NCBI GenBank assembly: GCA_002405515.1
Contig: DHLZ01000079.1
Coordinates: forward strand, 2,439-50,201
Direction: 5' to 3'
Origin: Planctomycetaceae bacterium UBA4655
GTDB taxonomy: Bacteria > Planctomycetota > Planctomycetia > Pirellulales > UBA1268
DNA: 47,763 nucleotides
Below are positions 6,636 through 43,165 of the stretch, piece by piece. Numbering within the stretch: position 1 is the first letter of the stretch; every line of letters begins with the position of its first letter. Position numbers and translations under genes: made by a program. The notes under the pieces are model-generated. The model did no database searches. It worked only from the letters and a program-made list of their open reading frames with translations, and was not told where the DNA came from.

Positions 6636-6761
6636 GGTCAAGCTGCCTTTTCCGAAGCACCATGCGGTTCGCCCGGGCAGTGACGCCGGGAATCGAACGA
6701 ATTTTTCGTACGCTGCCGGGGCTCCCCGGAGACCGAGTTTGGGCCGCTCGTGGCACGATGG

Positions 6762-18549: not shown

Positions 18550-18655
18550 GTGCGTTCGCACCCGGCTTCTGACTCTTCCATTTCCAGTTGCCCAAGTTTT
18601 TCATCTGTCCATTTTTCACCGTTTCCAAGTGAACCCATTGCAAAGGAGCAGTCTC

Positions 18656-23067: not shown

Positions 23068-24102
<1,035 letters not shown>

Positions 24103-24285
24103 GAACACGGAGCCTCTCGTCGGTGGCTTTGCGCCCCGGTTGACCCGGGTCACACCCGCTGAATACGATGCCAGAAAGGCAGCGGCTTTGCAACGTTGCA
24201 ATGGGGCTTGACTCACCCCATCAGTCACGCCGTGAATGCGGGAACGAAGATGGACCCATTCTCGGTGTCTTGCCGTGAGTTTGCG

Positions 24286-25545
24286 TCATGCGGCACGAAT
24301 CAGACTCTTCACCCCGGCCAGTGTCGCCGCTTGGAGCACTTTGCGGATGGCTTGTGACGTCTGGTCGATCTCGTCCGACGACAGCGTCGGGTGGACCAGG
24401 AACACGAGGCTGGTCTCCCCCAGCTCCCGGGCCACGGGAAGGCGATGCGGCGGCCGCAACCCCGCGGCGGCGAAGGCTTTTTCCGCGTAGATCTCGCTGC
24501 AGGAGCCGGGGCCACAAAAGACCCCCTCGGCCTGAATGGCTTGAACGATACGATCGCGCGTCCATCCCGGCTGTAGCCGTTCGCTCCGCACGAATGCGTA
24601 GTACTTGTAGTAGGCATGGCCGACGTGATCCGGAGGCTCCGGGATCCGCAGCGCCGGTTCACCGGCGAGTGCTGTCGATAGCCTCGCGGCATTCGCCCGC
24701 CGGGCGGCGACCAAGTGCGGCAGCCGACGCAGCATAACGCGTCCCATCGCGGCCTGTGGCTCCGTGAGCCGCCAGTTCGTGCCAAAGCTCTCGTGGCACC
24801 AAAGGAACCCGTGGGGCTTCCGTGGACGTTGCAGAACATCCCAGTCCTTGCCGTGATCCTTGAAGCTCCAGCACCGCCTCCACAGCTCGTGATCGTTGGT
24901 GACCAGCAGGCCGCCCTCGCCACCGGTCGTCATGATCTTGTCCTGGCAGAAAGAAAATGCGGCCGCGTGCCCCATCGAACCACAATGCCGGCCCTTGTAC
25001 ATGGCGTGATGCGCCTGGGCACAATCCTCGATGACCTTGATCCCCCGCGATTCCGCGAATGCCATGATCGGGTCGAGGTCACAAGGCCAGCCCGCCAGAT
25101 GAACGGCGACGATCGCCTTCGTGCGCTGTGTCGCCACGGCGCGAATGGTATCTACGGTGACGTTGCCGCTGTCGGGATCGAGGTCCGCCACGACCGGCTT
25201 CGCTCCGCGCATGACCACACAACTGGCCGAGGCGATGAACGTACGGCTGGGAACGATCACTTCGTCGCCTGGCCCGATGCCTAAGCCGTAGAGCGCCAAC
25301 TCCAACGCCACCGTGCCGTTCGTGAGTGCGATGGCATACCGGCTGCCGATCGCGGCGGCATACTCCGTCTCAAAGTCGCGGCATTCAGTCCCGGTCCAGT
25401 AGTTCACCTTGCCCGACCGCAGCACGCGGCTCGATGCCTCGATCAATTCCTCGTCGAAGTAGGGCCATGGTGACATCGATCCCGTCCGCACCGGACGTCC
25501 GCCGTCAATCGCCAGTCGGCTGCCGCCGGCACCCGTCGCTGTCAT
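24286..25545 (-). CDS. DegT/DnrJ/EryC1/StrS-family PLP-dependent sugar aminotransferase (PglE/WbpE-like)
   Basis: ATG at 25545 is preceded by AAGGAGG. Motifs: AIALTNGTVALELAL, VIEDCAQAH and AAFSFCQDKIMTTGGEGG (PLP-lysine block). Confidence 0.88.
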   Translation of the reverse strand: MTATGAGGSRLAIDGGRPVRTGSMSPWPYFDEELIEASSRVLRSGKVNYWTGTECRDFETEYAAAIGSRYAIALTNGTVALELALYGLGIGPGDEVIVPSRTFIASASCVVMRGAKPVVADLDPDSGNVTVDTIRAVATQRTKAIVAVHLAGWPCDLDPIMAFAESRGIKVIEDCAQAHHAMYKGRHCGSMGHAAAFSFCQDKIMTTGGEGGLLVTNDHELWRRCWSFKDHGKDWDVLQRPRKPHGFLWCHESFGTNWRLTEPQAAMGRVMLRRLPHLVAARRANAARLSTALAGEPALRIPEPPDHVGHAYYKYYAFVRSERLQPGWTRDRIVQAIQAEGVFCGPGSCSEIYAEKAFAAAGLRPPHRLPVARELGETSLVFLVHPTLSSDEIDQTSQAIRKVLQAATLAGVKSLIRAA

Positions 25546-25609
25546 GCCGCCTCCTTGGGGTCCGTCCGGAACCGTGTCATTTCTGTTGAGGTACATTCCC
25601 ACGCCGCCG

Positions 25610-26884
25610 CTAGGCCGCCTTGCGGTCGTTCCCCTCTGACTCGAATGCACGCAGGTAGCGCGGCGTCTGCCCGATCAACGTCCTGCCCGGCGGAACATCT
25701 CGCACTACGACCGTTCCCGCGCCGACCGAGGCGTCGTCGCCAATGACGATCTTGGGGATGACGCTGCTGCCCGTCCCCAATGCCGACCTCCGGCCTAACG
25801 TCACCGTCCCGGCCAGATGGGCACCGGGCGCGATACTGGCGAAATCACCGACACGTCCATCGTGGTCGATGGACGCCGCCGTGTTGATGATCACGTGCCG
25901 ACCAACGACGACGTCAGGTTGCACGACAGCCCCCGCGAAGACGACCGTGCCGGGACCGAGCTGCGCCGACTGGTGAACGATGGCCTGCGGGTGGATCACC
26001 GTCAGCCAGTCGATGTTCAATCGCCGAGCGAGTCGCTCGCGGACCGCGTTATCGCCGATCGCGATCACCCCCGACACCAATCCGTCCAGTTCGTCGATCA
26101 TGTCGATAGAGCCCCGCACTGGGACGCCCAGCACGTCGGAGCCCCAAGCGCGAGGGCCGTCGTCGAACACCGCTTCGATTTCGATGCCGCACGCCTTCAG
26201 GGTGCTGACGACGACCTTGGCGTGGCCGCCCGCACCGATTACGACGACCCGCCTCGCCTGGGGAACCGCTCGCGCGGGGCTGGCGAATTCGGGCATCGTC
26301 ACATGGCCCGAGGCCGAGATTCCTCTGCGGCTCAGCACGGCGGCGATCGTCATCCACAGAATCCGGATGTCGAGCCACAGGCTCATGTTGTCGACGTACC
26401 AGACATCGAGTTCGAAGCGTTTCTCCCAGGCAACGGCATTGCGGCCGTTGACCTGCGCCCATCCCGTCACGCCCGGTAGGACGTCGTGTCGCCGGCTCTG
26501 CTCAGGGGAATAGAGGGACAGGTAGTGCGTCAGCAGCGGTCGCGGCCCGACCAGACTCATCTGCCCGAGAAGCACGTTCCATAGCTCCGGAAGCTCATCG
26601 AGGCTGCACGACCGAAGAAATCTTCCAACCCAGGGCAATCGCCGTTCGTCTGGAAGCAGTGTGCCGTCGGCAGCACGGGCATCGATCATCGTGCGAAACT
26701 TGCAGATCCGGAACAGCCGCCCCCCGAGCCCCGGACGCTCCTGCCAATAGAGGACCGGCGTTCCGAGGTGGATGCGCACGACGATGGCCGTCACCACGAG
26801 CACGGGAGCCAGCACCAGCAAGGCTGGAATCACGATCGCCAGATCGAGGAACCGCTTGCCGTATCGGACGTAAAACCCTGCCAT
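25610..26884 (-). CDS. Bifunctional monotopic phosphoglycosyl transferase (PglC/WbaP C-terminal type) fused to a NeuD/PglD-family hexapeptide acetyltransferase (Neisseria PglB-like architecture)
   Basis: PGT half: GKRFLDLAIVIPALLVLAPV, CKFRTM, LDELPELWNVLLGQMSLVGPRP, PGVTGWAQVNG. Acetyltransferase half: VVVIGAGGHAKVV..IGDN..R, then left-handed beta-helix repeats (GPGTVVFAGAVV, GRHVIINTAASI, GDFASIAPGAHL, GDDASVGAGTVV). The ATG at 26884 lies 4 nt after the upstream stop. Confidence 0.85.
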   Translation of the reverse strand: MAGFYVRYGKRFLDLAIVIPALLVLAPVLVVTAIVVRIHLGTPVLYWQERPGLGGRLFRICKFRTMIDARAADGTLLPDERRLPWVGRFLRSCSLDELPELWNVLLGQMSLVGPRPLLTHYLSLYSPEQSRRHDVLPGVTGWAQVNGRNAVAWEKRFELDVWYVDNMSLWLDIRILWMTIAAVLSRRGISASGHVTMPEFASPARAVPQARRVVVIGAGGHAKVVVSTLKACGIEIEAVFDDGPRAWGSDVLGVPVRGSIDMIDELDGLVSGVIAIGDNAVRERLARRLNIDWLTVIHPQAIVHQSAQLGPGTVVFAGAVVQPDVVVGRHVIINTAASIDHDGRVGDFASIAPGAHLAGTVTLGRRSALGTGSSVIPKIVIGDDASVGAGTVVVRDVPPGRTLIGQTPRYLRAFESEGNDRKAA

Positions 26885-26888
26885 CGCG

Positions 26889-28244
26889 TCACGCAGCCTT
26901 GCTGGAGGGGAGTTCATGGACGTGCGCGGTTGGCAGCCGACCCACGGTGCGGTCCCAGGCGATGCCGTGGGCCTGCAACCGTTCGCGATACAGGTCGAGC
27001 AGGCCATTCCAGATGCGAGCGGACGGAAAGTCACGAAGAGCGCGTTCCTTGGCGGCCGTTCCGTGGCGCCGGCGCAGGGCCGGATCGGTCAGGTATCCGG
27101 TGATGGCGTTCGCCAGGGCGGCCACGTCGCCGAGCGGCACGATCGTTCCAGTGACGCCGTGCTGGATCGCGTCCACGACGCCGGTTGCCGAGAACCCGAC
27201 CGTGGGCAGCCCGGCACAGGCGGCTTCGAGTGGCACGTTGGGGAAGCCCTCGCGATGTGACGGAAACGCAAGGACGCTCATCACGTGATAGTAGGCTGAA
27301 GCATCCTTCACGAATCCCGTGATCACAACATCAGGATCGGACTTGAGCGCAGAGATCGTTTCGGCGTCGACGGGATCGCCGTCCTCGAAGTAACCGACGA
27401 CGAGCAGCTTGACTCCGGGATGCCCATGCCGAATGAGAGTGAACGCAGCGGCGAGTTCCCGGACTCCCTTGTCCCTGGTGAGTCGACCGACGAAACCGAC
27501 GACAGGCGCTCCCGGTGCGATACCGTACCGAGCCGCAATGTCGCGGACATCGGCCGAGTTCCTCCGGGCGATTATTCGTTCTGCATTTACGCCATTCGAC
27601 GAACCGCTGCCGATGACCAAGGCCTTGGCTTCGCGAACGAGCTTGCGCTCCAGGCACGTCGCCCGCAGGCTGGGGCTGACGAACAGGACCCGGTCCGCGC
27701 AAAAACCCGCCAGCCGTTCGGTCATCGTCAGTAGCCATAGCCGCCATCCGGAACAAGTCTCCAGACGCAGGCCGCGTTGCGTGTAGATGCGAACTGGGAC
27801 ACCGGCCAAGTACGCCGCGATCATTCCCAATAATCCTGCCTTCGGGGTTCCCGCGTTCACGATCTCCGGCTTCAGGCGACGGAACAGGCGCCACAGCCGA
27901 ACGAGTGAAACAAAATCCGCAATTGGTGACATTTCCCGGGACATCGGAACGGCGATCACAGTGATTTCGTCTCGTGCGGCCAATTGCCGGAGCTGCGGCC
28001 CAGGAGATGCCACTGCGATAACATCGATGCCGTTTTCGCGGAGAAAAGACAACTGTCCCGCCTGTAGCCAGAGCCCGCTCATTGCCGATGTGGTCAGGCT
28101 CACCAGTCGCACGCCTAGCCGCGGATTTGTCCTCGTCGATTCAACGACATCAACAAGACGCTTCGCCACGGCTTTGTCCGGATAACGCGAGAGGAAGACG
28201 GGCCGCGGAGGCTCGCGGAAATCCGGCTTTGACGCAAGGTCCAT
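26889..28244 (-). CDS. Glycosyltransferase family 4 (PglA/WbpH-like position next to the initiating transferase)
   Basis: RLVSLTTSAMSGLWLQAGQLSFLRENG, PKAGLLGMIAA and FPSHREGFPNVPLEAACAGLPTVG (E-x7-E). The true start may lie downstream of 28244. Confidence 0.8.
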   Translation of the reverse strand: MDLASKPDFREPPRPVFLSRYPDKAVAKRLVDVVESTRTNPRLGVRLVSLTTSAMSGLWLQAGQLSFLRENGIDVIAVASPGPQLRQLAARDEITVIAVPMSREMSPIADFVSLVRLWRLFRRLKPEIVNAGTPKAGLLGMIAAYLAGVPVRIYTQRGLRLETCSGWRLWLLTMTERLAGFCADRVLFVSPSLRATCLERKLVREAKALVIGSGSSNGVNAERIIARRNSADVRDIAARYGIAPGAPVVGFVGRLTRDKGVRELAAAFTLIRHGHPGVKLLVVGYFEDGDPVDAETISALKSDPDVVITGFVKDASAYYHVMSVLAFPSHREGFPNVPLEAACAGLPTVGFSATGVVDAIQHGVTGTIVPLGDVAALANAITGYLTDPALRRRHGTAAKERALRDFPSARIWNGLLDLYRERLQAHGIAWDRTVGRLPTAHVHELPSSKAA

Positions 28245-28408
28245 TCAGAGCCGCAGCTTCGGCCGCCTCCCCCATCCTGCGCACCCGCCCGTGCCCGCGC
28301 CGCTCCTCTACAAACCCGAATTTCCGCAACTTTTAGAGAACGTCTTTTCAGCCCCGGCTTGCAATTCGGTGAACGCTGTCAGCCGGCCTGCGTTCCGATA
28401 TTCCTCAG

Positions 28409-29491
28409 TCACGCGTAGTGAAGCAACGCATGGACGATGCGCTCCCCCGCCCTCCCGTCACCGTAAATTTCTGGCCGTTCGACGGTCGGCGCGGAAAATG
28501 TTTCCAGGGCATTTGCCAGGCGTCCCGACAACGGAGGAACCAGGATGTTCCAGCCGGAATCAACGAGTTCCACCCACTCCGTCTCTTGCCGCATTGTCAC
28601 GCACGGCACTCCATGAAAATACGCTTCCTTTTGGAGACCACCGCTGTCCGTCGCGATCAGCCAGGCGTGCTTCTCGAGCTTCACCATGTCGAGGTAGCCG
28701 AGCGGATCGGTCGCGATGACGGTATGCGGAAGCACGATGCCGAACTCATCAAGGCGTCGACGGGTGCGCGGGTGCACGGGCCAGACGATGGGCCGGCTCG
28801 AGGCCGCAAACGCATCGACGATCGCCGACAGCATTTCGCGGGAATCGGCGTTTTCCTGGCGGTGCACCGTCGCGAGGGTGTACGAGCCCGACTCGCAGCC
28901 GAGCCGCTGAAGGATCGTGCTCTGCCGCTCCGCCTGCTGGCCGAATTGAATTGCCGCGTCGTACATCACGTCACCGACGTTGACCACGGCCGGACCCTCG
29001 ATCCCCTCCCTCGCGAGATTTGCCGTTGCCTCAACGGTCGGCGTGAGCAACAGGTCGCTCGCGTGGTCGGTGAGAATCCGATTGATCTCCTCCGGCATGC
29101 GGCGGTTGCGGCTGCGAAGCCCGGCCTCCACATGGGCGATCCGCAGATGAATTTTCGAGGCAGCCAGCGCTGCCGCCACGGTCGAATCCGTGTCGCCATA
29201 TACGAGCACCCAATCCGGACGCTCTTCGAGGAGCACCCTCTCGATCGCCTCGATCATGCGGCCCGTGTTCTGGCCATGGGTTCCGCCGCCGATGCCGAAG
29301 TGGTGGGAAGGGGCCGGCAGGCCAAGCTCCTCGAAGAAGATGTCGCTCATGCTCGCGTCGAAATGCTGCCCCGTATGGACGATTTTTTCGGAGATGGCAC
29401 CCGCGACGCTCGGCGCGGCGATGGATCGTGACACGACGGCGGCCTTGACGAATTGCGGCCGGGCGCCGACGACCGTGATAAGATTGAGCAT
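28409..29491 (-). CDS. wecB: UDP-N-acetylglucosamine 2-epimerase (non-hydrolysing)
   Basis: MLNLITVVGARPQFVKAAVV, LVYGDTDST, AHVEAGLRS, DSGGLQKEA. Full-length at 360 aa. Confidence 0.92.
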   Translation of the reverse strand: MLNLITVVGARPQFVKAAVVSRSIAAPSVAGAISEKIVHTGQHFDASMSDIFFEELGLPAPSHHFGIGGGTHGQNTGRMIEAIERVLLEERPDWVLVYGDTDSTVAAALAASKIHLRIAHVEAGLRSRNRRMPEEINRILTDHASDLLLTPTVEATANLAREGIEGPAVVNVGDVMYDAAIQFGQQAERQSTILQRLGCESGSYTLATVHRQENADSREMLSAIVDAFAASSRPIVWPVHPRTRRRLDEFGIVLPHTVIATDPLGYLDMVKLEKHAWLIATDSGGLQKEAYFHGVPCVTMRQETEWVELVDSGWNILVPPLSGRLANALETFSAPTVERPEIYGDGRAGERIVHALLHYA

Positions 29492-29536
29492 CGTGACCCT
29501 TTTTCGACGTCTTCCGGATCGACCGTCCCCCCGGGA

Positions 29537-31492
29537 TCAGGCGGCCTTGGTGTCCCCTCGGGTGCCACGATCCTGACCGGGCTGCGGTGCCCTCGGCCCG
29601 ACCCGCCCGGCGATGGCACCAGCCAGTTCCGGCGTGTAGTCGGGAACGAGGCCGGCGAGCGCCTCACGCACGACGTGGGCGGGGGAGTTCACGATTCCAA
29701 CCAGGTGATCGACGACCTGCGGCACGTCGAGATCCGCCACCTCGGGCCTTGCCGCGACGATCTTTGGATGCGCGGTGGCCTCGAGCGACTCGACGTCCTC
29801 ATCGAACAGTTCCTCGTAGAGCTTCTCGCCGGGCCGGAGGCCGGAGAACTGGATCTCGATGTCACGGCCCTCGACCAGATTCGAGAGCCGGATCATGTCG
29901 CGGGCCAGGTCGGCGATTCGGACCGGCTCACCCATATCGAGGACGAACACCTCTCCCCCGCGTCCCATGAGCCCGGCCTGGAGCACGAGCCGCGACGCCT
30001 CTGGAATCGTCATGAAGAAACGCTCGATGTCGGGATGGGTGACGGTGATCGGTCCGCCGCGGAGGAGCTGCTCTCGAAAAAGCGGCACGACACTGCCGGC
30101 CGAGTCGAGCACGTTGCCAAATCGGACCGTGATGAACTTCGTGAGAGACTCTGGGGCGACCGCGCGGACGAGCATCTCGGCGAGCCGCTTGCAGGCCCCC
30201 ATGACGCTCGTGGGGTTCACCGCCTTGTCGGTCGAGATCATGACGAACGTCTCCACCTCGGCGGCGGCGGCGGCCCGCGCGAGCCCGGCGGTCGCGATCG
30301 CGATGTTCTTGACCGCCTCTCCCGGATGCGCCTCCATGAGCGGCACGTGCTTGTAGGCGGCGGCGTGGAAGACGATCGAGGGCCGCTGCTCGAGCAGGAT
30401 CGCCTGCATTCTCGTGGAGTCGGTGATGTCGCCGATGCACGGCAGGCACTCGATGCCGGAAAAGTCGCGATGCATCTCGCGTTCGAGCCAAAACAGCCCG
30501 TTTTCGTTCCGGTCCACGAGGACGATCCGGGCCGGGGCATGCCTCGCGACCTGACGGCAGATTTCTGCCCCGATGCTGCCGGCCGCACCGGTCACCAGCA
30601 CAGTCTCTCCCGAGAGCCACGCCCCGATGCCCTCGAGGTCGATCTCCACCGGCTCCCTCCTGAGGAGGTCGCCGATGTCGAGCGGCCTCGGCTGGACGTG
30701 CAGGCCGCCGCTCACGAGCGTCTCGATTCCCGGCACGATCCGCACGCGGCAACCTGAAGCGAAGCATCGCTGCTCGATCGAGCGGACCTGGCGGCCCACG
30801 AGCGTTCCCGAGACGAGCATCACCTCGTCCACTCGATGCAGGGCGACGAGACGCTCGAGATCGTCGGTCGTTCCCAGAACCGGCACGCCGACCGTGGCGC
30901 GGCCGACGAGTTGTGACTCGTCGGCCGGGGCAATGACGCCGATGATGCGGCTTTCGGACCTGGGAGAGCCGTTGACCGTCCGAACGATCGCCTCACTGGA
31001 GAGGCAGGTGCCGACGAGCAGGCAGCGGCTCGCACTGCTCTGCTGACGGCGGTGCAGGATGTCATGCACCTCGCAGGCAGCGGCCCGAATCCCGGCGAGG
31101 ATCGAGATGGAGACGAGCCAATCGATGACGGCAACGCTCCGCGGCACCCCGACACCGGCGAACTGACAGACGACGAACCCCGCCAGCGATCCCAACGTGA
31201 CCGCCCTGACGAGCCTCCAGAGGTCGTCGCGGCTGACGCCCCGTATGCTCCGACGATGGAAGTCGGCCAAAATGAGAAACGCCCACTGGATCGGCACCAC
31301 GATGCCCATCGCCCCGTGCAAGGTTTCCCATACGCGGCCGTCGAGTTCCCAGTCGAAACGCATCAGGTAGGCGATGACCATCCCGAGCGAGAGTGCGGCG
31401 AAGTTCACGCCAGCCCGGGCGACGTCGTTCTTCGACCATCCTTGGAACGCCTTGAATGCCCTCGAACGGCGAATCAACTGTTGAATGCCCAT
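29537..31492 (-). CDS. Membrane-anchored UDP-GlcNAc 4,6-dehydratase family protein (PglF/CapD/WbpM-like)
   Basis: N-terminal TM segments, then VLVTGAAGSIGAEICRQV, VFHAAAYKHVPLME, STDKAVNPTSVMGACKR, RFGNVLDSAGSV. ATG at 31492; the ORF track start at 31576 is a TTG. Confidence 0.88.
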   Translation of the reverse strand: MGIQQLIRRSRAFKAFQGWSKNDVARAGVNFAALSLGMVIAYLMRFDWELDGRVWETLHGAMGIVVPIQWAFLILADFHRRSIRGVSRDDLWRLVRAVTLGSLAGFVVCQFAGVGVPRSVAVIDWLVSISILAGIRAAACEVHDILHRRQQSSASRCLLVGTCLSSEAIVRTVNGSPRSESRIIGVIAPADESQLVGRATVGVPVLGTTDDLERLVALHRVDEVMLVSGTLVGRQVRSIEQRCFASGCRVRIVPGIETLVSGGLHVQPRPLDIGDLLRREPVEIDLEGIGAWLSGETVLVTGAAGSIGAEICRQVARHAPARIVLVDRNENGLFWLEREMHRDFSGIECLPCIGDITDSTRMQAILLEQRPSIVFHAAAYKHVPLMEAHPGEAVKNIAIATAGLARAAAAAEVETFVMISTDKAVNPTSVMGACKRLAEMLVRAVAPESLTKFITVRFGNVLDSAGSVVPLFREQLLRGGPITVTHPDIERFFMTIPEASRLVLQAGLMGRGGEVFVLDMGEPVRIADLARDMIRLSNLVEGRDIEIQFSGLRPGEKLYEELFDEDVESLEATAHPKIVAARPEVADLDVPQVVDHLVGIVNSPAHVVREALAGLVPDYTPELAGAIAGRVGPRAPQPGQDRGTRGDTKAA

Positions 31493-31584
31493 GGCCGATT
31501 TCCGGGAAGAGGAATGAACCCTTGCCCGCACTATCGGCACAACCGATCCATCTTCTCCAGGAATTGCTTTCGGCAACTTCCGCG

Positions 31585-34254
31585 TTACCGTCGCGTTTTT
31601 TCAGGCTTTGCCGCAGCCGACTGGGATCCTTCGCCACGACTTCGGGCCTCCACTCTGCCCAGCTTCCCCCGAAGATCGTTCCTGTCGGGCCTCCGCAGCA
31701 GACACCATTCGAGTTCTTTGGCGGCGGTGGCCCAGTCTTCGACGACGATCGCCGCATCGGCCGTAGCTCGATGAGCCTCGAACGATGATGGGTCGGCACG
31801 GATCGCCTCCTGGACCGTCGCGAGCGCCTCGGCCGGGCGGCCAAGGCGTTGCTCGATCGCGGCGGCCTCCAAGAGCAGTCGGCTCCTCGTCGCCGGCTCA
31901 GCCCGCTCGGCGGCACTCGCACGAAGCCGCTCGAGCCGACGTTCTCGCACCTCGGCCAAGGCCTCGGCCTTTTCGCGACGGCTCCAGGCCGCATCGATCG
32001 CCCGCAGGCCGTCGAGGTCGGGGGCGAGCAGGTCGCACGCCTCCGCCGAAGAAAGTCGCGGCAGGAGGATTGCGATGATCCTCGTCCGCTGACGCGAGTC
32101 CGCCGCGAAACTTCTTCGCCAGAACTCCGCAGCCCGGTCCATGTCGCCGTCGAGGGCCGCTTGGTTGGCCACCTCGAACAGCACGAGCGAGTCGGATGGC
32201 CGCACGAGCAGGCCCTGCGCGACCAGGTCTGAGGCCGCTTCGGGCCGACCGGCGAGGAAGGCCAGTTGCGCGAGCACGCACCAGGCCTCGCCGGCGAGCG
32301 GGGAGACGCGAACGGCCCTCGAGGCATCGCCGAGCGCGAGTTCGAGGTCGTCCGCATCGGGGGCGGCGGCACGCCGGACCCAGTCGACCAGTTCACCGTG
32401 CGACGCGAACCCCCCCTTGCCGGCGGCGAGCCTGATGTCCATGAGTCCGATTGATTTGCCATCAGCCAGTCGGCTTCTTCCGAATCGCTCCATGCGCGCG
32501 AGGGCCAGAGCTGAGGAGGCCCGCGGGTGATCGGGCCGCAGCGACACGCACCGCTCGAGCGCCGTGATTCGAGCGTCGAGCTTGTCGAGCAGCCGTTCCT
32601 GTCCGTCATTGCCCTCCGATCCGGCTTGCTCGGCAGGCCTTGATGCCGCCATCTCGATCTCCCGGGCGAGCTTCACCGACGCCTCCCAGAAGGGTTCCGC
32701 GCGGGCGGCCGCGATCTGCCGCACGGCACTGCCGCACAAAAGCACCATGATTCCCACGCCACCGACGACTGCCGCGTGTCGGCCGAGTCGCAGATCGATC
32801 GTGGGCAGCCAAGCGACACGCCGCGACGCCAGAGCGATGCCGCAGCCGCCGAGCGTCACGAGCAGCGTCGAGCAGGCAGGCACGTACCATGCGAAGTCCA
32901 CGAGCGCATGCACCACGCCGGCCGCAAGCCCCGACGCGATCGCCACGCCGACATGCCGTTCCCGCTCATTGCCGAGAGCGACCAAGAACCATGCGGCGGC
33001 GGTTGCCGCCATGATCGCAATCACGACGACGGCGAGACCGACGAAGCCGGTCTCGACACCGACATTCAAAAAGCCGTTCTCGGCATGCGTGAAGACGATT
33101 TCCCCGGTGGGTGGCATCGCAAGCGGCGAGACGTCCGCATGCGTTCCAGCTCCGGTGCCAAGCCAGGAAAACTCCGCGATCAGGCGGCACGCTGCCCGCC
33201 AGATGGCGAGCCTTTTGAAGTCGACGGACGTCGGTCCACCGGACTCGAACCCGAGCCCCATGACCTCAAAACGACCCATCAACCGATCCCATCCATGGAT
33301 TCCCAGCGCGGCCGAGACGAGGGCCGCAGCGGCAATCAAGCCGACGGCGGAGGAGACCCGCCACACGGTCGATCGTGCGAGGCAGCACAGGGCGACCACG
33401 ATCGCGAAACCGCATGCGAGCGACCCTCCCCGCGAGAGCGACGACGCCGCCGCAAAGGCCACCACGGCCAGCATCAACCAGCCCGCGAGGCGTTCCCGTT
33501 CGTAGAGCCCTTTTTGGAGCCCGGATGGTGAGGCCATCGCCCGAACGAGCACCGCCCCACAGCCGATCGCGAGGAACCCCGCGAAGTGATTGCGGTTCGT
33601 GAATGTGCCCTTCACGGCTCCACCGGCATCGTTGTGGGCAAACTCATAGATCCAGAGGTATCTGCCGTTGCCGGAGAGGTACTGCACGATTCCAAGCGTT
33701 GCGAGGATGCCCATCGCCCACGTGATCGCCCTGAGGATCCGTTCCACGTCCTCCACGGAGCGGATTTTCTGCACGACGACCGCGGTGAAAACGCCCTGAG
33801 CGAGCAGGATTCCCAGGCACGCGAGCGTTTCGCCCGGCACGAGCGAGAGGCAGTCCCAGCGTCCGAAGCTCCGAGCGCCGCCATCGAGGCAGGGCAGCAG
33901 GGAAACCACTCCCTGTGAGATCGCCTCGATCCACGGCCGTGGCAATGGAAGCACCTGGAGAAACCCGATCGCGATGCCGAGGATCGCCAACGCATCGAGC
34001 AGGCCGAATCGCCAGGTGCCGTCGCGCCGCCAGGCGGCGATCGTCCAGGACGCCATGGCTGCCAGGGCGGCCCCCGTGAGGATGGCCTGTCCGAGAGGGT
34101 GCCGACCACCCATGGCGAGCGGCATCGCCACGATTGCGAGCACCACCGCAAGATCGAGGCATCCTCGCTCGACTCGGTCCAGGGGATCGGCCACGACCGC
34201 TTGCGGCGGGTTCCCGCGATGCGACTGAGCGGACCTGCCCCTGGGCGACGCCAT
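31585..34254 (-). CDS. Wzy_C-domain membrane protein (O-antigen ligase / O-oligosaccharyltransferase family) with about 400-aa C-terminal TPR-like helical repeat domain
   Basis: GTFTNRNHFAGFLAIG, SLSRGGSLA and THAENGFLNVGVETGFVG within roughly 12 TM helices. The C-terminal half is made of Ala/Leu/Arg-rich paired-helix repeats, e.g. AEALATVQEAIRADPSSFEAHRATADAAIVVEDWATAAKELEWCLLRRPD. The start overlaps the Wzc stop (GTGA/TGATG at 34252-34257). Confidence 0.8.
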   Translation of the reverse strand: MASPRGRSAQSHRGNPPQAVVADPLDRVERGCLDLAVVLAIVAMPLAMGGRHPLGQAILTGAALAAMASWTIAAWRRDGTWRFGLLDALAILGIAIGFLQVLPLPRPWIEAISQGVVSLLPCLDGGARSFGRWDCLSLVPGETLACLGILLAQGVFTAVVVQKIRSVEDVERILRAITWAMGILATLGIVQYLSGNGRYLWIYEFAHNDAGGAVKGTFTNRNHFAGFLAIGCGAVLVRAMASPSGLQKGLYERERLAGWLMLAVVAFAAASSLSRGGSLACGFAIVVALCCLARSTVWRVSSAVGLIAAAALVSAALGIHGWDRLMGRFEVMGLGFESGGPTSVDFKRLAIWRAACRLIAEFSWLGTGAGTHADVSPLAMPPTGEIVFTHAENGFLNVGVETGFVGLAVVVIAIMAATAAAWFLVALGNERERHVGVAIASGLAAGVVHALVDFAWYVPACSTLLVTLGGCGIALASRRVAWLPTIDLRLGRHAAVVGGVGIMVLLCGSAVRQIAAARAEPFWEASVKLAREIEMAASRPAEQAGSEGNDGQERLLDKLDARITALERCVSLRPDHPRASSALALARMERFGRSRLADGKSIGLMDIRLAAGKGGFASHGELVDWVRRAAAPDADDLELALGDASRAVRVSPLAGEAWCVLAQLAFLAGRPEAASDLVAQGLLVRPSDSLVLFEVANQAALDGDMDRAAEFWRRSFAADSRQRTRIIAILLPRLSSAEACDLLAPDLDGLRAIDAAWSRREKAEALAEVRERRLERLRASAAERAEPATRSRLLLEAAAIEQRLGRPAEALATVQEAIRADPSSFEAHRATADAAIVVEDWATAAKELEWCLLRRPDRNDLRGKLGRVEARSRGEGSQSAAAKPEKTRR

Positions 34255-36617
34255 CACGCGGCCCTCGCACGCGGAGGCTCTCCGCCTGGCGGGCGACCAC
34301 GGGAATGATCCATCTGGACGGCGACGTCGGCATCGCCCTTATCCACATCGGTCGCGGACTCTTCTTCGCCATATGGCTTGCCGTAGCCGTAGCCGTAGCC
34401 GTAGCCGTAGCCGCCGTAGCCATAGCCATAGCCATAGCCGTGCTCCTCGAAGCCAACCGCGTTGATGACGGCTCCCGCCAGCGTGGTGCCGAGGGCCCGC
34501 AGCGTCTCGACGGTCTTGCGGATGGAGTTGCGTCGGTTTTTCTCAGGACGGATGACCATCACCGTGGTGTCGCTCGCCCTCCCAATCGCCGCCGCATCGG
34601 TTCCCGCGAGTACCGGGGGCGAATCGATGATGATCTGGTCGTAGACGGTCTCGGCCCAACCCAGCAGATCCGCAAAGCGGTTGCCAAGCAGAAGCTCGGC
34701 TGGATTCGCCGGTCGCCTGCCGGACGGAATGATGTCGATCGGCACGGCTCCGGACCGGCAGATCACGGCCGCGGCGACGTCTGCGACCGGATCCGAGCCC
34801 GAGAGGATCTCGGCGAGACCACGATGCGACCGCTCGCCGATCAGGTTCGTCAGGCCGGGCTTTCGCAGGTCGCCATCAATGAGCAGCACACGCCTGCCCG
34901 CCTGGTGGTAGGAGATCGCAAGATTGACACTCACGGTCGTCTTGCCGTCGCCCGGCTCCGAACTCGTCACGCTGACTCGCCGCACGTCGCCGCCTCCCAT
35001 GACGATCACGGTCCGCAGCGTGCGAAAACCCTCGCTCGCGGCGTCGGAGGATTCCTTCCACACGTGCGCCTTCTCGAGGCCGGCGGAACCATCGTCACCG
35101 GCTTCTTCGTCATCGTCGGCCATCCCGGGGATCGTCGCGAGCGTCCGCAGCCCGAACCTGCTTTCGAGGTCGGCGGGCGACCGCACGCGATCGTCGAGAC
35201 TGTCGAGAATCAGGACTAAGCCCACACCGACGGCCAGACCTGCCGCCGAGAAAAACAGGATCGTCAGGTTGGGCTTCGGCGAGACGGGGCTTGTCGGCAC
35301 GACCGCCTCCCGCACGACCGTTGTCTTCACCCCGCCGTGCTCCTGCCTGAGATCGACACTCGCGATCTGGCCGAGAATCGTGTTGCGGAGTTCCCGCAGC
35401 CATCGCAGGTCGTGCTCGACGATGTCGAGTTTCGCGGTTTCGCTCGCAAACCCGATCGACTCCTTCTTCGCCTGCTCGTAACTGTCCCGGAGCCCTGCCT
35501 CATGGCGGCTCGTCGCCTCGAGCTTCTGCCGCAGGATCTGCTCCACCGCCCGGGCAACCGTGGCATCATCTTGGCCGAGCGACGGCCCGTTTCCGACACC
35601 GTCCAACTGCTTGAGATACGCCTCGACCTGGCCGATCTTCTTGCGACGCTCGACGACTCGCGGGTGATTGTCGCCGTAATACTCGAGCATCGTCTCGAGC
35701 TGCGCCCGGTCCTCGATAAGCTGCTTCTCGAGCGAGACACGGGTCTCCTTGTTTCGGCCGCCGAGCCCCATCGATTCGAGGAACGCATCCTTGCCGAGCG
35801 TCTCCTCGATCGCCATCAGGCTCTTGCGGAGATCGTCTCCCCGCTGCATCGACTCGACGAGGGCGTGGTGCGTGGCCTGGAGCGCGAGCCGCTTTTTCTG
35901 TGTCTCGACGAGCGCTGCATTCAGCTGGATCGCCCGCTCCACGACCGGATGGGCCCGCTTGTCGTCACTCTTGATACCGAGGTCGCCGACCCGCTCGCGG
36001 ATCGCGAGGTATTCCCGCTGCTTGCCCTCGATCCTTTCGTCGACCGACGCCTTCTCCTTGTTGAGCGTTTCAACGAGAGTGCCGGCCTTTCCCTTGTGCG
36101 ACTCCTCCATGAACCGGGCGTAGGCCTGAACGACCGACTGCAGCACCGCGGCGGTCAACTCGGGCTGCGGCGAGCGGAACCGCAGGTCGATCAGGTTCGT
36201 CTGCTTCACACCACGGATCTTCAGCGACTTCGAGATTCGCGTAGCGAGCCGTTCCGGATCCCGCGAGCCCATCATGGCTTGCAGCGACGGGTCGAGGAGC
36301 GATGCAGCCGATTGGAGAACGAGCGGGCTTGCGATCAGGGTTTCGTAGGTCGTCATCGCTTTCAGTTCTTCGCCCCTCGCGGCCAGCGACGTGCTGAGCG
36401 ACTCGCGGTGCGAATCGACGACGAGGATCTCCGTCTCGGCCTCGAAGATCCGCTCGGCCGTTGCGAAATAAAGACCTCCAAGACCGAGGCTGGCGGCGAA
36501 GCACGACACCACCACGAAGCGTCGCCGCCAGAGCAACCCCAAGAGCCGCATCGCTCGTTGGACCATCGCCTCCGCGGAATCTTCGGCCACGAGTTGGCTC
36601 TCGATCATGGACTGCAT
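34254..36617 (-). CDS. wzc: Polysaccharide co-polymerase / BY-kinase (Wzc/GumC-EpsB type tyrosine autokinase)
   Basis: N-terminal Wzz/GumC domain with two TM segments and a long coiled-coil region. Walker A is SSEPGDGKTTVSVNLA, Walker A' is VLLIDGDLRKP and Walker B is YDQIIIDSPPV. The C-terminal tyrosine cluster is HGYGYGYGYGGYGYGYGYGYGKPYG. Confidence 0.92.
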   Translation of the reverse strand: MQSMIESQLVAEDSAEAMVQRAMRLLGLLWRRRFVVVSCFAASLGLGGLYFATAERIFEAETEILVVDSHRESLSTSLAARGEELKAMTTYETLIASPLVLQSAASLLDPSLQAMMGSRDPERLATRISKSLKIRGVKQTNLIDLRFRSPQPELTAAVLQSVVQAYARFMEESHKGKAGTLVETLNKEKASVDERIEGKQREYLAIRERVGDLGIKSDDKRAHPVVERAIQLNAALVETQKKRLALQATHHALVESMQRGDDLRKSLMAIEETLGKDAFLESMGLGGRNKETRVSLEKQLIEDRAQLETMLEYYGDNHPRVVERRKKIGQVEAYLKQLDGVGNGPSLGQDDATVARAVEQILRQKLEATSRHEAGLRDSYEQAKKESIGFASETAKLDIVEHDLRWLRELRNTILGQIASVDLRQEHGGVKTTVVREAVVPTSPVSPKPNLTILFFSAAGLAVGVGLVLILDSLDDRVRSPADLESRFGLRTLATIPGMADDDEEAGDDGSAGLEKAHVWKESSDAASEGFRTLRTVIVMGGGDVRRVSVTSSEPGDGKTTVSVNLAISYHQAGRRVLLIDGDLRKPGLTNLIGERSHRGLAEILSGSDPVADVAAAVICRSGAVPIDIIPSGRRPANPAELLLGNRFADLLGWAETVYDQIIIDSPPVLAGTDAAAIGRASDTTVMVIRPEKNRRNSIRKTVETLRALGTTLAGAVINAVGFEEHGYGYGYGYGGYGYGYGYGYGKPYGEEESATDVDKGDADVAVQMDHSRGRPPGGEPPRARAA
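34380..34439 (-). repeat. Hexanucleotide tandem repeat (GGCTAC/GGCTAT)n encoding the (Gly-Tyr)n tyrosine cluster of Wzc
   Basis: The plus strand reads GCCGTA x5, then GCC, then GCCGTA, then GCCATA x3 (34380-34436). This gives 9 Gly-Tyr dipeptides interrupted by one extra Gly. Confidence 0.9.
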
Positions 36618-38021: not shown

Positions 38022-38585
38022 TCACGGGCTGGCAGGCTTTTGCGACGTCGCGATCGGAATCGCAATCGCCGCACCGATCCCCGCGGCGACGAGCGCCGTC
38101 GTCGCAAGCGGATAGGCGGCGAAGGCCCTCTTCAGCGGGCCGCGCCGGGGAGGATCCACCCTTTGCTGCTGGGGCGGGCAGTCGTCGCAGCAACTGACAT
38201 GGGCGACCTGTCGAACCTGAGGAGGGGCCGTCTTCTTCGGCCAGAGCCGGTAACTCGCCGTCGACGTGCCCGATCGGATCTCATGCACGCCCTCGCGAAG
38301 CCCGGCGACCCGGAAGTTGCCGCCGGCATCGGTCTGCGTCGTGGCGATCACACCACCGGCGAACATGACCTCGACGTCCTTCGCTGGCACGGGACGCCCC
38401 GTTTCGGTGCTGACCTTGCCGACGAGAACACCCTCGTCGATCACGACGTCCTCGACATGGACGGCCGCAACGGCCTGATTCGCGGATCCTGCGGCCATGC
38501 AGGAAAGCGGCTGGCCGAGCATGCTGACCATGCACGCAACCACACCGAACCGCTTGATCAAGCCGGTGACGCTCATGTCCCCCAT
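38022..38585 (-). CDS. Small secreted carboxypeptidase-regulatory-like (CarbopepD_reg) beta-sandwich protein with Cys cluster and C-terminal TM anchor
   Basis: Signal-like N-terminus LIKRFGVVACMVSMLGQPLSCMAAG. Domain block GKVSTETGRPVPAKDVEVMF..TQTDAGGNFRVAGLREGVHEI. Then CCDDCPP and a hydrophobic tail, PLATTALVAAGIGAAIAIPIA. The start is the ATG at 38585 or 38576. Confidence 0.6.
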   Translation of the reverse strand: MGDMSVTGLIKRFGVVACMVSMLGQPLSCMAAGSANQAVAAVHVEDVVIDEGVLVGKVSTETGRPVPAKDVEVMFAGGVIATTQTDAGGNFRVAGLREGVHEIRSGTSTASYRLWPKKTAPPQVRQVAHVSCCDDCPPQQQRVDPPRRGPLKRAFAAYPLATTALVAAGIGAAIAIPIATSQKPASP

Positions 38586-38718
38586 CCTTATTCCGGAGCG
38601 TAAGGCCTGCGGTCGCCGGCTTCCTGTAAGCCAGAGCACAAGCCAAATCACCATGTTGATCGGCGGGACGCGATCGGCGGCATGAGAACACTATCGGAAA
38701 GTTCAGGTTATTCCGATT

Positions 38719-43164: not shown

Positions 43165-43165
43165 G

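What the first reader, a model, noticed from the sequence alone, without database searches (positions are those of the whole stretch)
24286..34254. Neisseria-pgl-like gene set next to a Wzy_C-TPR protein: candidate O-linked protein glycosylation system
Five components lie contiguously on the minus strand:
- a membrane-anchored PglF/CapD-type 4,6-dehydratase (29537-31492)
- a DegT aminotransferase (24286-25545)
- a PGT-acetyltransferase fusion (25610-26884)
- an adjacent GT4 (26889-28244)
- directly upstream, a Wzy_C-family protein with a roughly 400-aa TPR-like extension (31585-34254)

In Neisseria, the same enzyme logic builds a di-N-acetylbacillosamine-based glycan on undecaprenyl phosphate. 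That set is a dehydratase, an aminotransferase, the bifunctional PglB, PglA, a flippase and the Wzy_C-family O-oligosaccharyltransferase PglL. PglL then transfers the glycan to many proteins.

A TPR module is a protein-protein interaction device. A polymerase or lipid A-core ligase has no obvious need for one, but an enzyme selecting protein acceptors would. A separate Wzy-like gene (20085-21290) and a Wzx (9064-10605) are also present, so polymerase and transferase roles could be split.

The alternative is that this is simply the initiating module of the exported EPS repeat unit and the TPR protein is its polymerase.
Basis: partly seen in the sequence, partly recalled or inferred. Interest (0 to 1): 0.68.

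Follow-up and report, generated by a model that had tools for sequence, protein, structure and literature searches.

The report
Planctomycete polysaccharide export locus with TPR-polymerase
The genes are real, but the big membrane enzyme with the TPR tail is a conserved partner of the planctomycete polysaccharide export pump (Wza/Wzc) and looks more like a sugar-chain polymerase than a protein-glycosylating enzyme.

Summary
It missed a WecB epimerase between the GT4 and the dehydratase, and did not note that the Wzy_C-TPR gene is translationally coupled (TGATG) to a Wzc tyrosine kinase, itself preceded by Wza.

The sugar logic is supported: dehydratase, aminotransferase and a PglB-like PGT-acetyltransferase fusion, giving a diNAcBac-type primer.

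The protein O-glycosylation reading is not supported, though not excluded.
- **Synteny:** In about 80 related loci, nearly all Planctomycetota, Wzc lies immediately upstream in 58-61 of 69. The dehydratase follows in only 26 of 67.
- **Catalytic residues:** WaaL and PglL share two Arg and a catalytic His. This family keeps the Arg (R276, R349) but has a near-invariant Glu (E393) for the His, as in inverting Wzy polymerases.
- **PglL models:** PglL_A and Wzy_C_2 do not match.
- **TPR:** The 13-TM model places it in the periplasm, which fits either reading.

Best reading: a Wzc-coupled polymerase-like enzyme with a periplasmic TPR scaffold, in a Wzx/Wzy-dependent EPS or capsule locus. Caveat: a second WaaL-fold protein (20085-21290), a likely cassette polymerase, leaves a ligase or transferase role open.

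The parts
38719..39510 (-). CpsB/CapC-type (PHP) tyrosine phosphatase, partner of the Wzc kinase
   Evidence: PF19567 E=2.6e-49. Seen in 14 of 34 full-length related loci.
38022..38654 (-). Small secreted CarboxypepD_reg-domain protein with a C-terminal hydrophobic anchor; conserved module member of unknown role
   Evidence: PF13620 at 30.1 bits, just under its cut-off. Signal-like N-terminus and a C-terminal TM at residues 183-201. Present in 21 of 34 full loci, often as 2-4 tandem copies.
36644..37783 (-). Wza-like OPX lipoprotein (Poly_export plus SLBB domains), with no long C-terminal helix
   Evidence: PF02563 and PF22461/PF10531. Lipobox LSGC and a short C-terminus.
34254..36617 (-). Wzc: PCP-2a co-polymerase fused to a BY-kinase with a C-terminal (YG)n tyrosine cluster
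   Evidence: Wzz, GNVR and AAA_31 domains; TIGR01007 at 160 bits, above its 108 cut-off. Two TM segments. Tyrosine-rich tail. Stop codon overlaps the next gene's ATG as TGATG.
31585..34254 (-). Wzy_C-TPR protein: 13-TM WaaL-fold (GT-C_B) enzyme plus a periplasmic TPR solenoid. This is the focus of the finding.
   Evidence: PF04932 E=1.7e-16. AF2 model pLDDT 91, pTM 0.89. Foldseek matches 7TPG WaaL for the TM part and CTPR/OGT TPR structures for the tail. Profile against PDB hits only 7TPG, E=2.3e-12.
33076..33294 (-). Periplasmic catalytic loop (residues 322-394) carrying R349 and the H391-A-E393-N motif. R276 lies just upstream, at the periplasmic end of TM8.
   Evidence: CmWaaL R191/R265/H313 and E. 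coli WaaL R215/R288/H338 align to R276/R349/E393. R276 and R349 are invariant and E393 is 49 of 50 in alignment A1. Glu at this position in at least 79 of 84 loci, never His.
31633..32640 (-). TPR solenoid (residues about 540-875), following TM13 and its long helix (residues 493-538)
   Evidence: TPR_2, TPR_14, TPR_19 and TPR_8 above cut-off. Helix-hairpin array in the model. Conserved almost as well as the TM part: 34% against 39% mean pairwise identity.
29537..31492 (-). Membrane-anchored PglF/CapD/WbpM-type UDP-HexNAc 4,6-dehydratase
   Evidence: PF02719 E=2e-107 plus PF13727. N-terminal TM segments. Immediately downstream of the TPR protein in 26 of 67 related loci.
28409..29491 (-).
   Evidence: PF02350 E=2.5e-101. 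TIGR00236 at 283.8 bits, above its 210 cut-off.
26889..28244 (-). GT4 glycosyltransferase, probably adding the second sugar
   Evidence: PF13692, PF00534 and PF13579.
25610..26884 (-). PglC-type phosphoglycosyltransferase fused to a PglD-type N-acetyltransferase (Neisseria PglB-like order)
   Evidence: PF02397 at residues 60-234, PF17836 at 262-339, and Hexapep. TIGR03570 above cut-off. One re-entrant hydrophobic segment.
24286..25545 (-). DegT/PglE-type sugar aminotransferase
   Evidence: PF01041 E=3.8e-91.
23068..24228 (-). SDR nucleotide-sugar epimerase/dehydratase, last gene of the minus-strand operon
   Evidence: PF01370 E=1.9e-59. TviC-like hit far below its cut-off.
20085..21290 (+). 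Second WaaL-fold protein ('Wzy2', 401 aa), in the low-GC variable part. Likely the cassette's repeat-unit polymerase.
   Evidence: Homologues carry PF04932 or are named 'O-antigen ligase family'. hhalign against the TPR family E=5e-5. AF2 pLDDT 87.7 with 7TPG TM 0.60. In Alphaproteobacteria it is the only Wzy-like gene in clusters with Wzx and glycosyltransferases.
18629..19879 (+). FGE-sulfatase-domain protein with a PEP-CTERM sorting signal (VPEPS, TM, RRRA)
   Evidence: PF03781 E=1.3e-15. PF07589 at 23.4 bits, above its 20.7 cut-off. Sequence.
15644..17599 (+). UDP-ManNAc/GlcNAc 6-dehydrogenase. The domain starts near residue 233, so the true start is probably internal.
   Evidence: TIGR03026 at 419 bits. 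WecC and TviB models are the next best hits.
9064..10605 (-). Wzx flippase
   Evidence: PF13440 E=7e-40 and PF01943.
4307..8057 (-). GT4 (4307-5668), GT2 (5547-6641) and polysaccharide pyruvyl transferase (6762-8057) of the variable cassette
   Evidence: The same Wzx, pyruvyl-transferase, GT2, Wzy2 order occurs in Altererythrobacter (L086).
21480..23057 (+). GT4-GNAT fusion
   Evidence: PF13692 and PF00583.

Best explanation
The region is the conserved core of a planctomycete Wzx/Wzy-dependent, Wza/Wzc-exported acidic polysaccharide (EPS or capsule) locus.

**Shown by sequence**
- PglF-type dehydratase, DegT aminotransferase and a PglD-type acetyltransferase fused to a PglC-type phosphoglycosyltransferase.
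- WecB with a UDP-HexNAc dehydrogenase, and a GT4.
- One Wzx.
- An export module of Wzc (PCP-2a/BY-kinase), Wza and a CpsB phosphatase.

**Inferred pathway**
- The first three enzymes build a 2,4-diacetamido-2,4,6-trideoxyhexose (diNAcBac-type) sugar on undecaprenyl phosphate.
- WecB, the dehydrogenase and the GT4 add a HexNAc-uronic acid.
- Wzx flips the unit. Wzc, Wza and CpsB control chain growth and export.

**Role of the Wzy_C-TPR protein (inferred)**
- It is the third constant part of that export module.
- It is a WaaL-fold Und-PP-glycan transferase that works with Wzc, most likely as the polymerase. R276 and R349 would hold the diphosphate and Glu393 would activate a sugar hydroxyl.
- A 13th TM helix puts its TPR solenoid in the periplasm. 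There it would dock onto the Wzc/Wza assembly or guide the nascent chain, as the TPR scaffolds of synthase-dependent systems do.

**The second WaaL-fold protein (20085-21290)**
It belongs to a lower-GC cassette that looks horizontally acquired (Wzx, pyruvyl transferase, GT2). It is probably that cassette's own repeat-unit polymerase, so the two enzymes may make different linkages or be partly redundant.
For: **Gene content and operon structure**
- Domain assignments.
- TGATG overlap between Wzc and Wzy_C-TPR.

**Synteny**
- More than 540 relatives were found in species-representative genomes. The 80 best are almost all Planctomycetota.
- Wzc is immediately upstream on the same strand in 58 of 69 loci. 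Three more are stop-to-stop ORF artefacts, and five others have Wza adjacent.
- Paralogous copies within one MAG each have their own Wza-Wzc: L017/L067, L041/L081, L025/L044.
- Sugar genes vary between loci. PglF follows in 26 of 67; WecA-type initiating transferases replace the PglB type in L004, L023, L025 and L081.

**Catalytic signature**
- WaaL R/R/H aligns to R276/R349/E393.
- Glu is present in at least 79 of 84 loci and His never.
- Inverting Wzy families of clan GT-C1 have Glu or Asp where O-antigen ligases have His (PMC10920833).
- PglL keeps the His (PMC3643930).

**Other support**
- Several loci with a Wzx nearby show no other polymerase candidate within 10 kb: L025, L033, L038, L042, L047.
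- Periplasmic TPR scaffolds are established in polysaccharide export (PMC9601211; PMC9384988, listed).
- The TPR part is nearly as conserved as the TM part, which fits a conserved partner.
Against: - A separate polymerase candidate sits in the same cluster in the window (Wzy2). PF14296 Wzy genes do the same in L028 and L043. The conserved enzyme could therefore be doing something other than polymerisation.
- Classical Wzy polymerases are repeat-unit specific and poorly conserved. This family instead diverges in step with Wza/Wzc, across loci whose sugar genes differ.
- Wzy_C plus a C-terminal TPR motif is the architecture reported for the O-OTases PglL and WsfB (PMC2943079).
- The Glu-versus-His rule comes from alignments and models of a limited set of families. 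It is not biochemistry on this protein.
- No experiment exists for any member of the family.
- No TPR-Wzc contact was tested.
Confidence: 0.5

Rival explanations
1. The Wzy_C-TPR protein is a PglL-like O-oligosaccharyltransferase. It takes the flipped Und-PP-linked diNAcBac-based glycan and transfers it to Ser/Thr of periplasmic or surface proteins, with the TPR domain selecting the acceptors. Wzy2 would be the polymerase for the exported polymer. Possible acceptors are PEP-CTERM proteins, such as the one at 18629-19879, or the conserved CarboxypepD_reg proteins.
For: - Architecture precedent: PglL and WsfB have Wzy_C plus a C-terminal TPR motif (PMC2943079). The GT-C pilin glycosyltransferase TfpW also has a periplasmic TPR domain.
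- The TPR domain is predicted to be periplasmic.
- A second WaaL-fold protein that could be the polymerase is present. PF14296 Wzy genes occur in L028 and L043.
- The family is conserved across loci with different sugars, as expected for an enzyme with relaxed donor specificity.
- A PEP-CTERM protein lies in the locus.
Against: - PF15864 (PglL_A) and PF11846 give no hit even at E<=10. No NCBIfam ligase or O-OTase model matches.
- The His conserved in PglL and WaaL is Glu here.
- The conserved partner is Wza-Wzc, with translational coupling. An O-OTase does not need that machinery, and PglL genes are typically outside polysaccharide loci.
- The pgl-like genes are not the conserved neighbours.
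- No exosortase is present in the window.
Confidence: 0.15
2. The protein is a terminal ligase or release enzyme of the export pathway. After Wzy2-type polymerisation, it would transfer the finished chain from Und-PP to a non-protein acceptor, or to water. Candidate acceptors are lipid A-core (a WaaL or K_LPS-like role), another lipid anchor, or peptidoglycan. This step would be coupled to hand-over to Wzc/Wza.
For: - Closest solved structure, and the only PDB sequence hit, is the WaaL O-antigen ligase.
- The gene is a conserved module part, while the polymerase-like genes vary between loci.
- Coupling to Wzc/Wza.
Against: - The catalytic His of O-antigen ligases is Glu here.
- Several loci show no other polymerase candidate nearby.
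- No lipid A-core genes lie in the neighbourhood.
- No such step is known for Wza/Wzc pathways in Gram-negative bacteria (own knowledge).
Confidence: 0.15
3. The TM domain is catalytically inert. The protein is only a membrane-anchored TPR scaffold for the Wza/Wzc machine.
For: The TPR domain is conserved and the gene is tied to Wzc/Wza.
Against: The residues that bind Und-PP and sit at the catalytic position are invariant or nearly so: R276, R349, E393, E402, D454. All lie on the periplasmic face. That pattern is unlikely in a dead enzyme.
Confidence: 0.03

Closest known systems
Wzy polymerases of CAZy clan GT-C1 (inverting bacterial polysaccharide polymerases, GT125-GT129) acting with a PCP/Wzc co-polymerase
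   Same: - WaaL-like GT-C_B fold.
- Two conserved Arg, and an acidic residue at the position of the ligase His.
- Encoded in a Wzx/Wza/Wzc locus.
   Different: - An extra 13th TM helix and a roughly 330-aa periplasmic TPR solenoid.
- Conserved across a phylum and co-inherited with Wza/Wzc, rather than swapped with the repeat-unit genes.
- Membership in a specific CAZy family was not tested.
WaaL O-antigen ligase (GT121; Cupriavidus metallidurans 7TPG, E. coli K-12 WaaL)
   Same: - Best structural and sequence match in the PDB: Foldseek TM 0.55 on the target, profile E=2.3e-12.
- Both Und-PP-binding Arg are conserved.
   Different: - Catalytic His (H313 in C. metallidurans, H338 in E. coli) is Glu.
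- 13 TM helices rather than 12.
- TPR tail.
- Sits in an export operon, not an LPS core locus.
PglL / WsfB / TfpO O-oligosaccharyltransferases
   Same: - Wzy_C core followed by a C-terminal periplasmic domain described as TPR-containing.
- Use Und-PP-linked glycans, including diNAcBac-based ones in Neisseria.
   Different: - No PglL_A or Wzy_C_2 match.
- His replaced by Glu.
- Operon with Wzc/Wza rather than standing alone or lying next to a pilin or target gene.
E. coli group 1 capsule / colanic-acid type Wza-Wzb-Wzc systems, and Myxococcus EPS/BPS/MASC pathways
   Same: - OPX plus PCP-2a BY-kinase plus phosphatase plus Wzx/Wzy logic.
- Tyrosine-rich Wzc tail.
   Different: - PHP-type (CpsB) phosphatase.
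- The polymerase-like gene is fixed directly after wzc and carries a TPR domain.
- The OPX lacks the long C-terminal helix.
- Conserved CarboxypepD_reg proteins accompany the module.
Periplasmic TPR scaffolds of synthase-dependent secretion (PgaA, BcsC, AlgK, PelB)
   Same: A periplasmic TPR solenoid attached to polysaccharide secretion machinery, thought to guide the polymer or recruit partners.
   Different: In those systems the TPR is fused to, or partners with, an outer-membrane beta-barrel in a synthase pathway. Here it is fused to an inner-membrane WaaL-fold enzyme in a Wzx/Wzy pathway.
Neisseria/Campylobacter diNAcBac pathway (PglD/F dehydratase, PglC/E aminotransferase, PglB or PglD+PglC, PglA)
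   Same: The same four enzyme activities. The PGT-acetyltransferase fusion has the order of Neisseria PglB.
   Different: - Here the genes are embedded in a Wza/Wzc export operon.
- In some relatives all cytoplasmic steps are fused into one 1196-aa protein.
- The stereochemistry of the product is unknown.

Membership tests
PglL-type O-oligosaccharyltransferase | Wzy_C (PF04932) core domain | tested here: met
   60.7 bits against a 31.7 cut-off.
PglL-type O-oligosaccharyltransferase | PglL_A motif (PF15864), built to separate PglL from WaaL; also Wzy_C_2 (PF11846) | tested here: not met
   Neither model is listed, even at max E-value 10, for the whole protein, the TM part or the TPR part. The purpose of the model is given in PMC3643930.
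PglL-type O-oligosaccharyltransferase | Conserved Arg, Arg, His triad (N. meningitidis R224, R298, H349) | tested here: not met
   Both Arg are present (R276, R349). The His position is Glu393, seen in 49 of 50 sequences and at least 79 of 84 loci, and is never His.
PglL-type O-oligosaccharyltransferase | Gene lies outside polysaccharide loci, often next to its target protein | tested here: not met
   Wzc is immediately upstream in 58-61 of 69 loci. Stop and start codons overlap in the window.
PglL-type O-oligosaccharyltransferase | Transfer of Und-PP-glycan to Ser/Thr of proteins | not testable with these tools
   Needs glycoproteomics or a reconstituted assay.
WaaL O-antigen ligase (GT121) | 12-TM GT-C_B fold with a periplasmic loop carrying two Arg | tested here: met
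   Foldseek match to 7tpg_B. HMM alignment over residues 175-352 of 7TPG. The protein has one extra TM helix.
WaaL O-antigen ligase (GT121) | Catalytic His (CmWaaL H313, E. coli H338) | tested here: not met
   Aligns to Glu393.
Inverting Wzy polymerase, clan GT-C1 | One or two conserved Arg, plus Asp or Glu at the position of the ligase His | tested here: met
   R276, R349 and E393. The criterion is from PMC10920833.
Inverting Wzy polymerase, clan GT-C1 | Match to a specific CAZy BP-Pol family HMM (GT125-GT129), or placement in a curated Wzy tree | not tested
   Those HMMs and curated sets are not available in the tools.
Inverting Wzy polymerase, clan GT-C1 | Polymerises Und-PP-linked repeat units | not testable with these tools
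   Needs mutant analysis or an in vitro assay.
Wzx/Wzy-dependent Wza-Wzc export system | OPX, PCP-2a with BY-kinase and a Tyr cluster, phosphatase, Wzx, initiating PGT | tested here: met
diNAcBac-type sugar pathway | 4,6-dehydratase, C4 aminotransferase, PglD-type N-acetyltransferase and PglC-type PGT | tested here: met
   TIGR03570 scores above its cut-off.
diNAcBac-type sugar pathway | Product is UDP-diNAcBac (gluco configuration) | not testable with these tools
   The aminotransferase matches several equivalog models only far below their cut-offs.
PEP-CTERM/exosortase EPS system | Exosortase gene and a TIGR03097-type ligase in the locus | tested here: not met
   A PEP-CTERM protein is present. 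No exosortase domain and no TIGR03097 hit were found in any ORF scanned.

The most novel reading that the evidence does not exclude
The conserved Wza-Wzc-(WaaL-fold-TPR) triad is a planctomycete-specific machine. In it, the TPR-bearing enzyme is not the polymerase but a terminal transferase. It would attach the Und-PP-linked polysaccharide or repeat unit to a protein or other anchor as it enters the Wzc/Wza conduit. Candidate anchors are PEP-CTERM proteins or the co-conserved CarboxypepD_reg proteins. That would amount to O-glycosylation or capsule anchoring with an acidic catalytic residue in place of the His of PglL and WaaL.
Probability: 0.2. Interest if true: 0.75.

Novelty: new variant of a known kind. 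Interest (0 to 1): 0.38.

Why it matters
- **A constant part in a variable pathway.** Wzx/Wzy pathways are usually described with a variable, poorly conserved polymerase. Here a WaaL-fold enzyme with a periplasmic TPR solenoid is a fixed, co-inherited third component of the Wza/Wzc machine across Planctomycetota. That offers a tractable handle on how polymerase, co-polymerase and outer-membrane exporter are physically coupled.
- **Annotation.** Wzy_C plus TPR plus pgl-like sugar genes is not enough to call an O-glycosylation system. The His-versus-Glu position and the PglL_A model are quick discriminators.
- **If the minority reading is right.** It would reveal a new type of protein or anchor glycosylation in a phylum whose cell-surface biology is little known.

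Tried and rejected
- **Single-sequence search of the whole protein against PDB.** It returned only designed and natural TPR proteins. A profile of the TM part was needed to reach WaaL.
- **Whole-model Foldseek.** The list is dominated by TPR hits. No Wzy or PglL structure appeared in the lists shown or in the profile search, so a structural vote between the classes was not possible.
- **hhalign of Wzy2.** The single sequence against the TPR family gave only a short motif. The Wzy2 profile found nothing against PDB sequences or E. coli WaaL. Its catalytic residues therefore could not be mapped. I dropped an initial idea that Wzy2 is the His-type ligase and the TPR protein the polymerase on that basis alone.
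- **Local HMMs of both WaaL-fold families against 10-kb flanks of 85 loci.** No further copies were found, apart from a partial TPR-only match in L021. Extra polymerase candidates had to be sought by TM counting plus Pfam. Many multi-TM ORFs turned out to be unrelated transporters.
- **Exosortase search.** Looking for one in the window to support a PEP-CTERM glycosylation link found none.
- **Literature searches.** Searches for a Wzy_C-TPR enzyme in Planctomycetes, or fused polymerase-TPR proteins, found no description of this family.
- **Searches not run.** I did not run the 1.84-billion-protein representative search or the third homologue search. The top lists would have been saturated by the same family without adding names.

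Full report
**1. What is there**

The window is high-GC (about 0.59-0.70). The closest relatives of its proteins are Pirellulales and other Planctomycetota MAGs. The best match to the Wzy_C-TPR protein is 97% identical, and the next are 65-70%.

One long minus-strand operon runs from about 39.5 kb to 23 kb:

| Coordinates | Gene |
|---|---|
| 38719-39510 | CpsB/CapC tyrosine phosphatase |
| 38022-38654 | small CarboxypepD_reg protein |
| 36644-37783 | Wza-like OPX lipoprotein |
| 34254-36617 | Wzc PCP-2a/BY-kinase with a (YG)n tail |
| 31585-34254 | Wzy_C-TPR protein |
| 29537-31492 | PglF/CapD-type dehydratase |
| 28409-29491 | WecB |
| 26889-28244 | GT4 |
| 25610-26884 | PGT-acetyltransferase fusion |
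| 24286-25545 | DegT |
| 23068-24228 | SDR epimerase |

- The Wzc stop codon overlaps the Wzy_C-TPR start codon as TGATG.
- The four reader start coordinates I checked (dehydratase, DegT, PGT-acetyltransferase, Wzy_C-TPR) are ATG codons.
WecB interrupts the "contiguous" five genes. The operon continues upstream into the export genes.

The rest of the locus (4-23 kb) has lower GC (0.59-0.64 over 8-16 kb). It holds the following:
- Glycosyltransferases: a GT4-GNAT fusion, a GT2 and a GT4.
- Membrane enzymes and transport: a second WaaL-fold protein ("Wzy2", 20085-21290) and one Wzx.
- Sugar synthesis and modification: a UDP-HexNAc dehydrogenase, an acyltransferase, a pyruvyl transferase and an APH-like kinase.
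- A PEP-CTERM protein.

No exosortase is present.

**2. The Wzy_C-TPR protein itself**

- **Domains.** Pfam gives Wzy_C at 60.7 bits. When the tail is scanned alone, several TPR models pass their cut-offs.
- **Model.** AlphaFold2 with 50 homologues gives a confident model, pLDDT 91 and pTM 0.89. It has 13 TM helices and a 73-residue loop at residues 322-394. TM13 continues as a long helix (493-538), followed by a TPR solenoid (542-873).
- **Structural matches.** Foldseek matches the TM part to the WaaL ligase 7TPG and the tail to CTPR and OGT TPR structures. A profile of the TM part finds only 7TPG in the PDB, at E=2.3e-12.
- **Topology (inferred).** The alignment anchors the catalytic loop to the periplasmic face. 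Four helices follow that loop, so the TPR domain is periplasmic. The positive-inside count does not contradict this.

**3. What travels with it**

- More than 540 relatives were found in species-representative genomes. The best 80 are almost all Planctomycetota. I searched the flanks with the window's own proteins.
- Wzc lies immediately upstream on the same strand in 58 of 69 loci with enough upstream sequence. Three more are ORF-calling artefacts, and five have Wza adjacent.
- Only three loci (L036, L059, L064) lack both Wza and Wzc nearby.
- The PglF-type dehydratase follows in 26 of 67 loci. Within 10 kb, DegT appears in 8 of 34 loci, the PGT in 4 of 34 and the PglD-like acetyltransferase in 2 of 34.
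- Some loci use a WecA-type initiating enzyme instead: L004, L023, L025 and L081.
- MAGs with two copies have a separate Wza-Wzc pair for each copy.
- Bit scores of Wza, Wzc and the TPR protein fall off together across loci.

The invariant unit is therefore Wza-Wzc-(Wzy_C-TPR). The Neisseria-like sugar genes are one of several cargo-synthesis options.

**4. Ligase, O-OTase or polymerase?**

- Schulz et al. state that E. coli WaaL R215, R288 and H338 are conserved in PglL as R224, R298 and H349. They built PglL_A (PF15864) to separate PglL from WaaL (PMC3643930).
- In my alignments CmWaaL R191/R265/H313 and E. coli R215/R288/H338 map to R276/R349/E393.
- Both Arg are invariant. The His position is Glu in 49 of 50 aligned homologues and in at least 79 of 84 loci. 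It is never His.
- The CAZy analysis of Und-PP-sugar transferases reports that inverting Wzy families of clan GT-C1 have Glu or Asp where O-antigen ligases have His (PMC10920833).
- PglL_A and Wzy_C_2 do not match even at E<=10. No NCBIfam ligase model matches.

These tests argue against membership in PglL or WaaL and fit a polymerase-type active site. They rest on alignment, not biochemistry.

**5. Complications**

- **Architecture precedent.** A review notes that PglL and WsfB combine Wzy_C with a C-terminal TPR motif (PMC2943079). TfpW, a GT-C pilin glycosyltransferase, also has a periplasmic TPR domain.
- **Wzy2 is real.**
  - Homologues carry PF04932.
  - hhalign against the TPR family gives E=5e-5.
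  - Its model matches WaaL with TM 0.60.
- **Wzy2 looks like a polymerase by position.**
  - In Altererythrobacter and Aquamicrobium its relatives are the only Wzy-like gene in clusters with Wzx and glycosyltransferases.
  - One of those clusters has the same Wzx, pyruvyl-transferase, GT2 order as the window.
  - Wzy2 is thus probably a cassette polymerase acquired horizontally.
- **Other loci are mixed.** L028 and L043 carry a PF14296 Wzy in the same cluster. Loci such as L025, L033, L038, L042 and L047 have a Wzx but no other candidate polymerase within 10 kb.

The evidence therefore does not settle whether the conserved enzyme is the polymerase or a terminal transferase.

**6. Best explanation and ranking**

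| Reading | Confidence |
|---|---|
| Wzc-coupled polymerase-like enzyme with a periplasmic TPR scaffold | about 0.5 |
| Terminal ligase or release enzyme | about 0.15 |
| Inert scaffold | about 0.03 |

- In the leading reading, the TPR domain docks to Wzc/Wza or guides the chain. This is analogous to the TPR scaffolds of synthase-dependent systems (PMC9601211; PMC9384988, listed).
- The inert-scaffold reading is unlikely because the periplasmic-face residues are invariant.
- The locus as a whole is, with high confidence, a Wzx/Wzy-dependent EPS or capsule locus primed by a diNAcBac-type sugar.
- From established knowledge, such 2,4-diamino-trideoxyhexose primers also start O-antigens and capsules. 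The sugar genes alone therefore do not indicate protein glycosylation.

**7. Novelty**

- I found no paper describing this family. Source annotations read only "O-antigen ligase/TPR repeat protein".
- It is a new variant of a known kind. It matters as a fixed, TPR-bearing, Glu-type WaaL-fold component of the export machine across a phylum. It is not established as a new glycosylation system.

Noticed in passing
L002 1-2469 and L003 1-3012 (relatives at 41% identity): One 1196-aa protein fuses GT4, Bac_transf (PGT), PglD_N/Hexapep (acetyltransferase) and DegT (aminotransferase). Most of the cytoplasmic diNAcBac-type pathway, plus the next glycosyltransferase, is in a single polypeptide beside the Wza-Wzc-TPR module.
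   Followed up: no
window 38022-38654 (-); tandem copies in L028, L032, L034, L041, L044, L072: A roughly 200-aa protein with a signal-like N-terminus, a CarboxypepD_reg beta-sandwich and a C-terminal hydrophobic anchor is co-conserved with CpsB and Wza (21 of 34 full loci). It often occurs as 2-4 tandem paralogues. Its role is unknown; it could be a structural part of the exporter or an acceptor.
   Followed up: partly
window 36644-37783 (-): The Wza-like OPX is a lipoprotein (lipobox LSGC). It ends shortly after the last SLBB domain (...IGIGASVPLF) and has no long amphipathic C-terminal helix like that of E. coli Wza. By the scheme of PMC9601211, it may need a separate outer-membrane beta-barrel partner.
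   Followed up: no
window 18629-19879 (+): An FGE-sulfatase-domain protein rich in Ser, Thr and Asn, with a textbook PEP-CTERM signal (VPEPS, TM, RRRA), sits inside the polysaccharide locus. No exosortase gene is in the window.
   Followed up: partly
window about 4300-21300: The variable half of the locus has lower GC (0.59-0.64) than the flanks (0.67-0.70). Its Wzx, pyruvyl-transferase, GT2 ... Wzy2 set mirrors a cluster in Altererythrobacter confluentis (L086). This suggests a horizontally acquired cassette.
   Followed up: partly
L046, L049, L056 (Thermoguttaceae): In these loci Wza is followed directly by the Wzy_C-TPR gene, then CpsB and the CarboxypepD_reg protein. No Wzc was detected within the roughly 8.7 kb held upstream.
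   Followed up: no
window 10595-12653 (-): An APH-like kinase-fold protein (10595-12238) and a small HAD/PNKP-like phosphatase (12210-12653) lie between the Wzx and the variable glycosyltransferases. They might phosphorylate or otherwise modify the glycan.
   Followed up: no
window 21480-23057 (+): A GT4 glycosyltransferase C-terminal domain is fused to a GNAT acetyltransferase.
   Followed up: no
window 39558-47148: The right flank holds housekeeping genes. They are a D-2-hydroxyacid dehydrogenase, a rhomboid protease, agmatine deiminase with N-carbamoylputrescine amidase (putrescine synthesis), and serine hydroxymethyltransferase. The rhomboid, dehydrogenase, CpsB order is syntenic in L001.
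   Followed up: no
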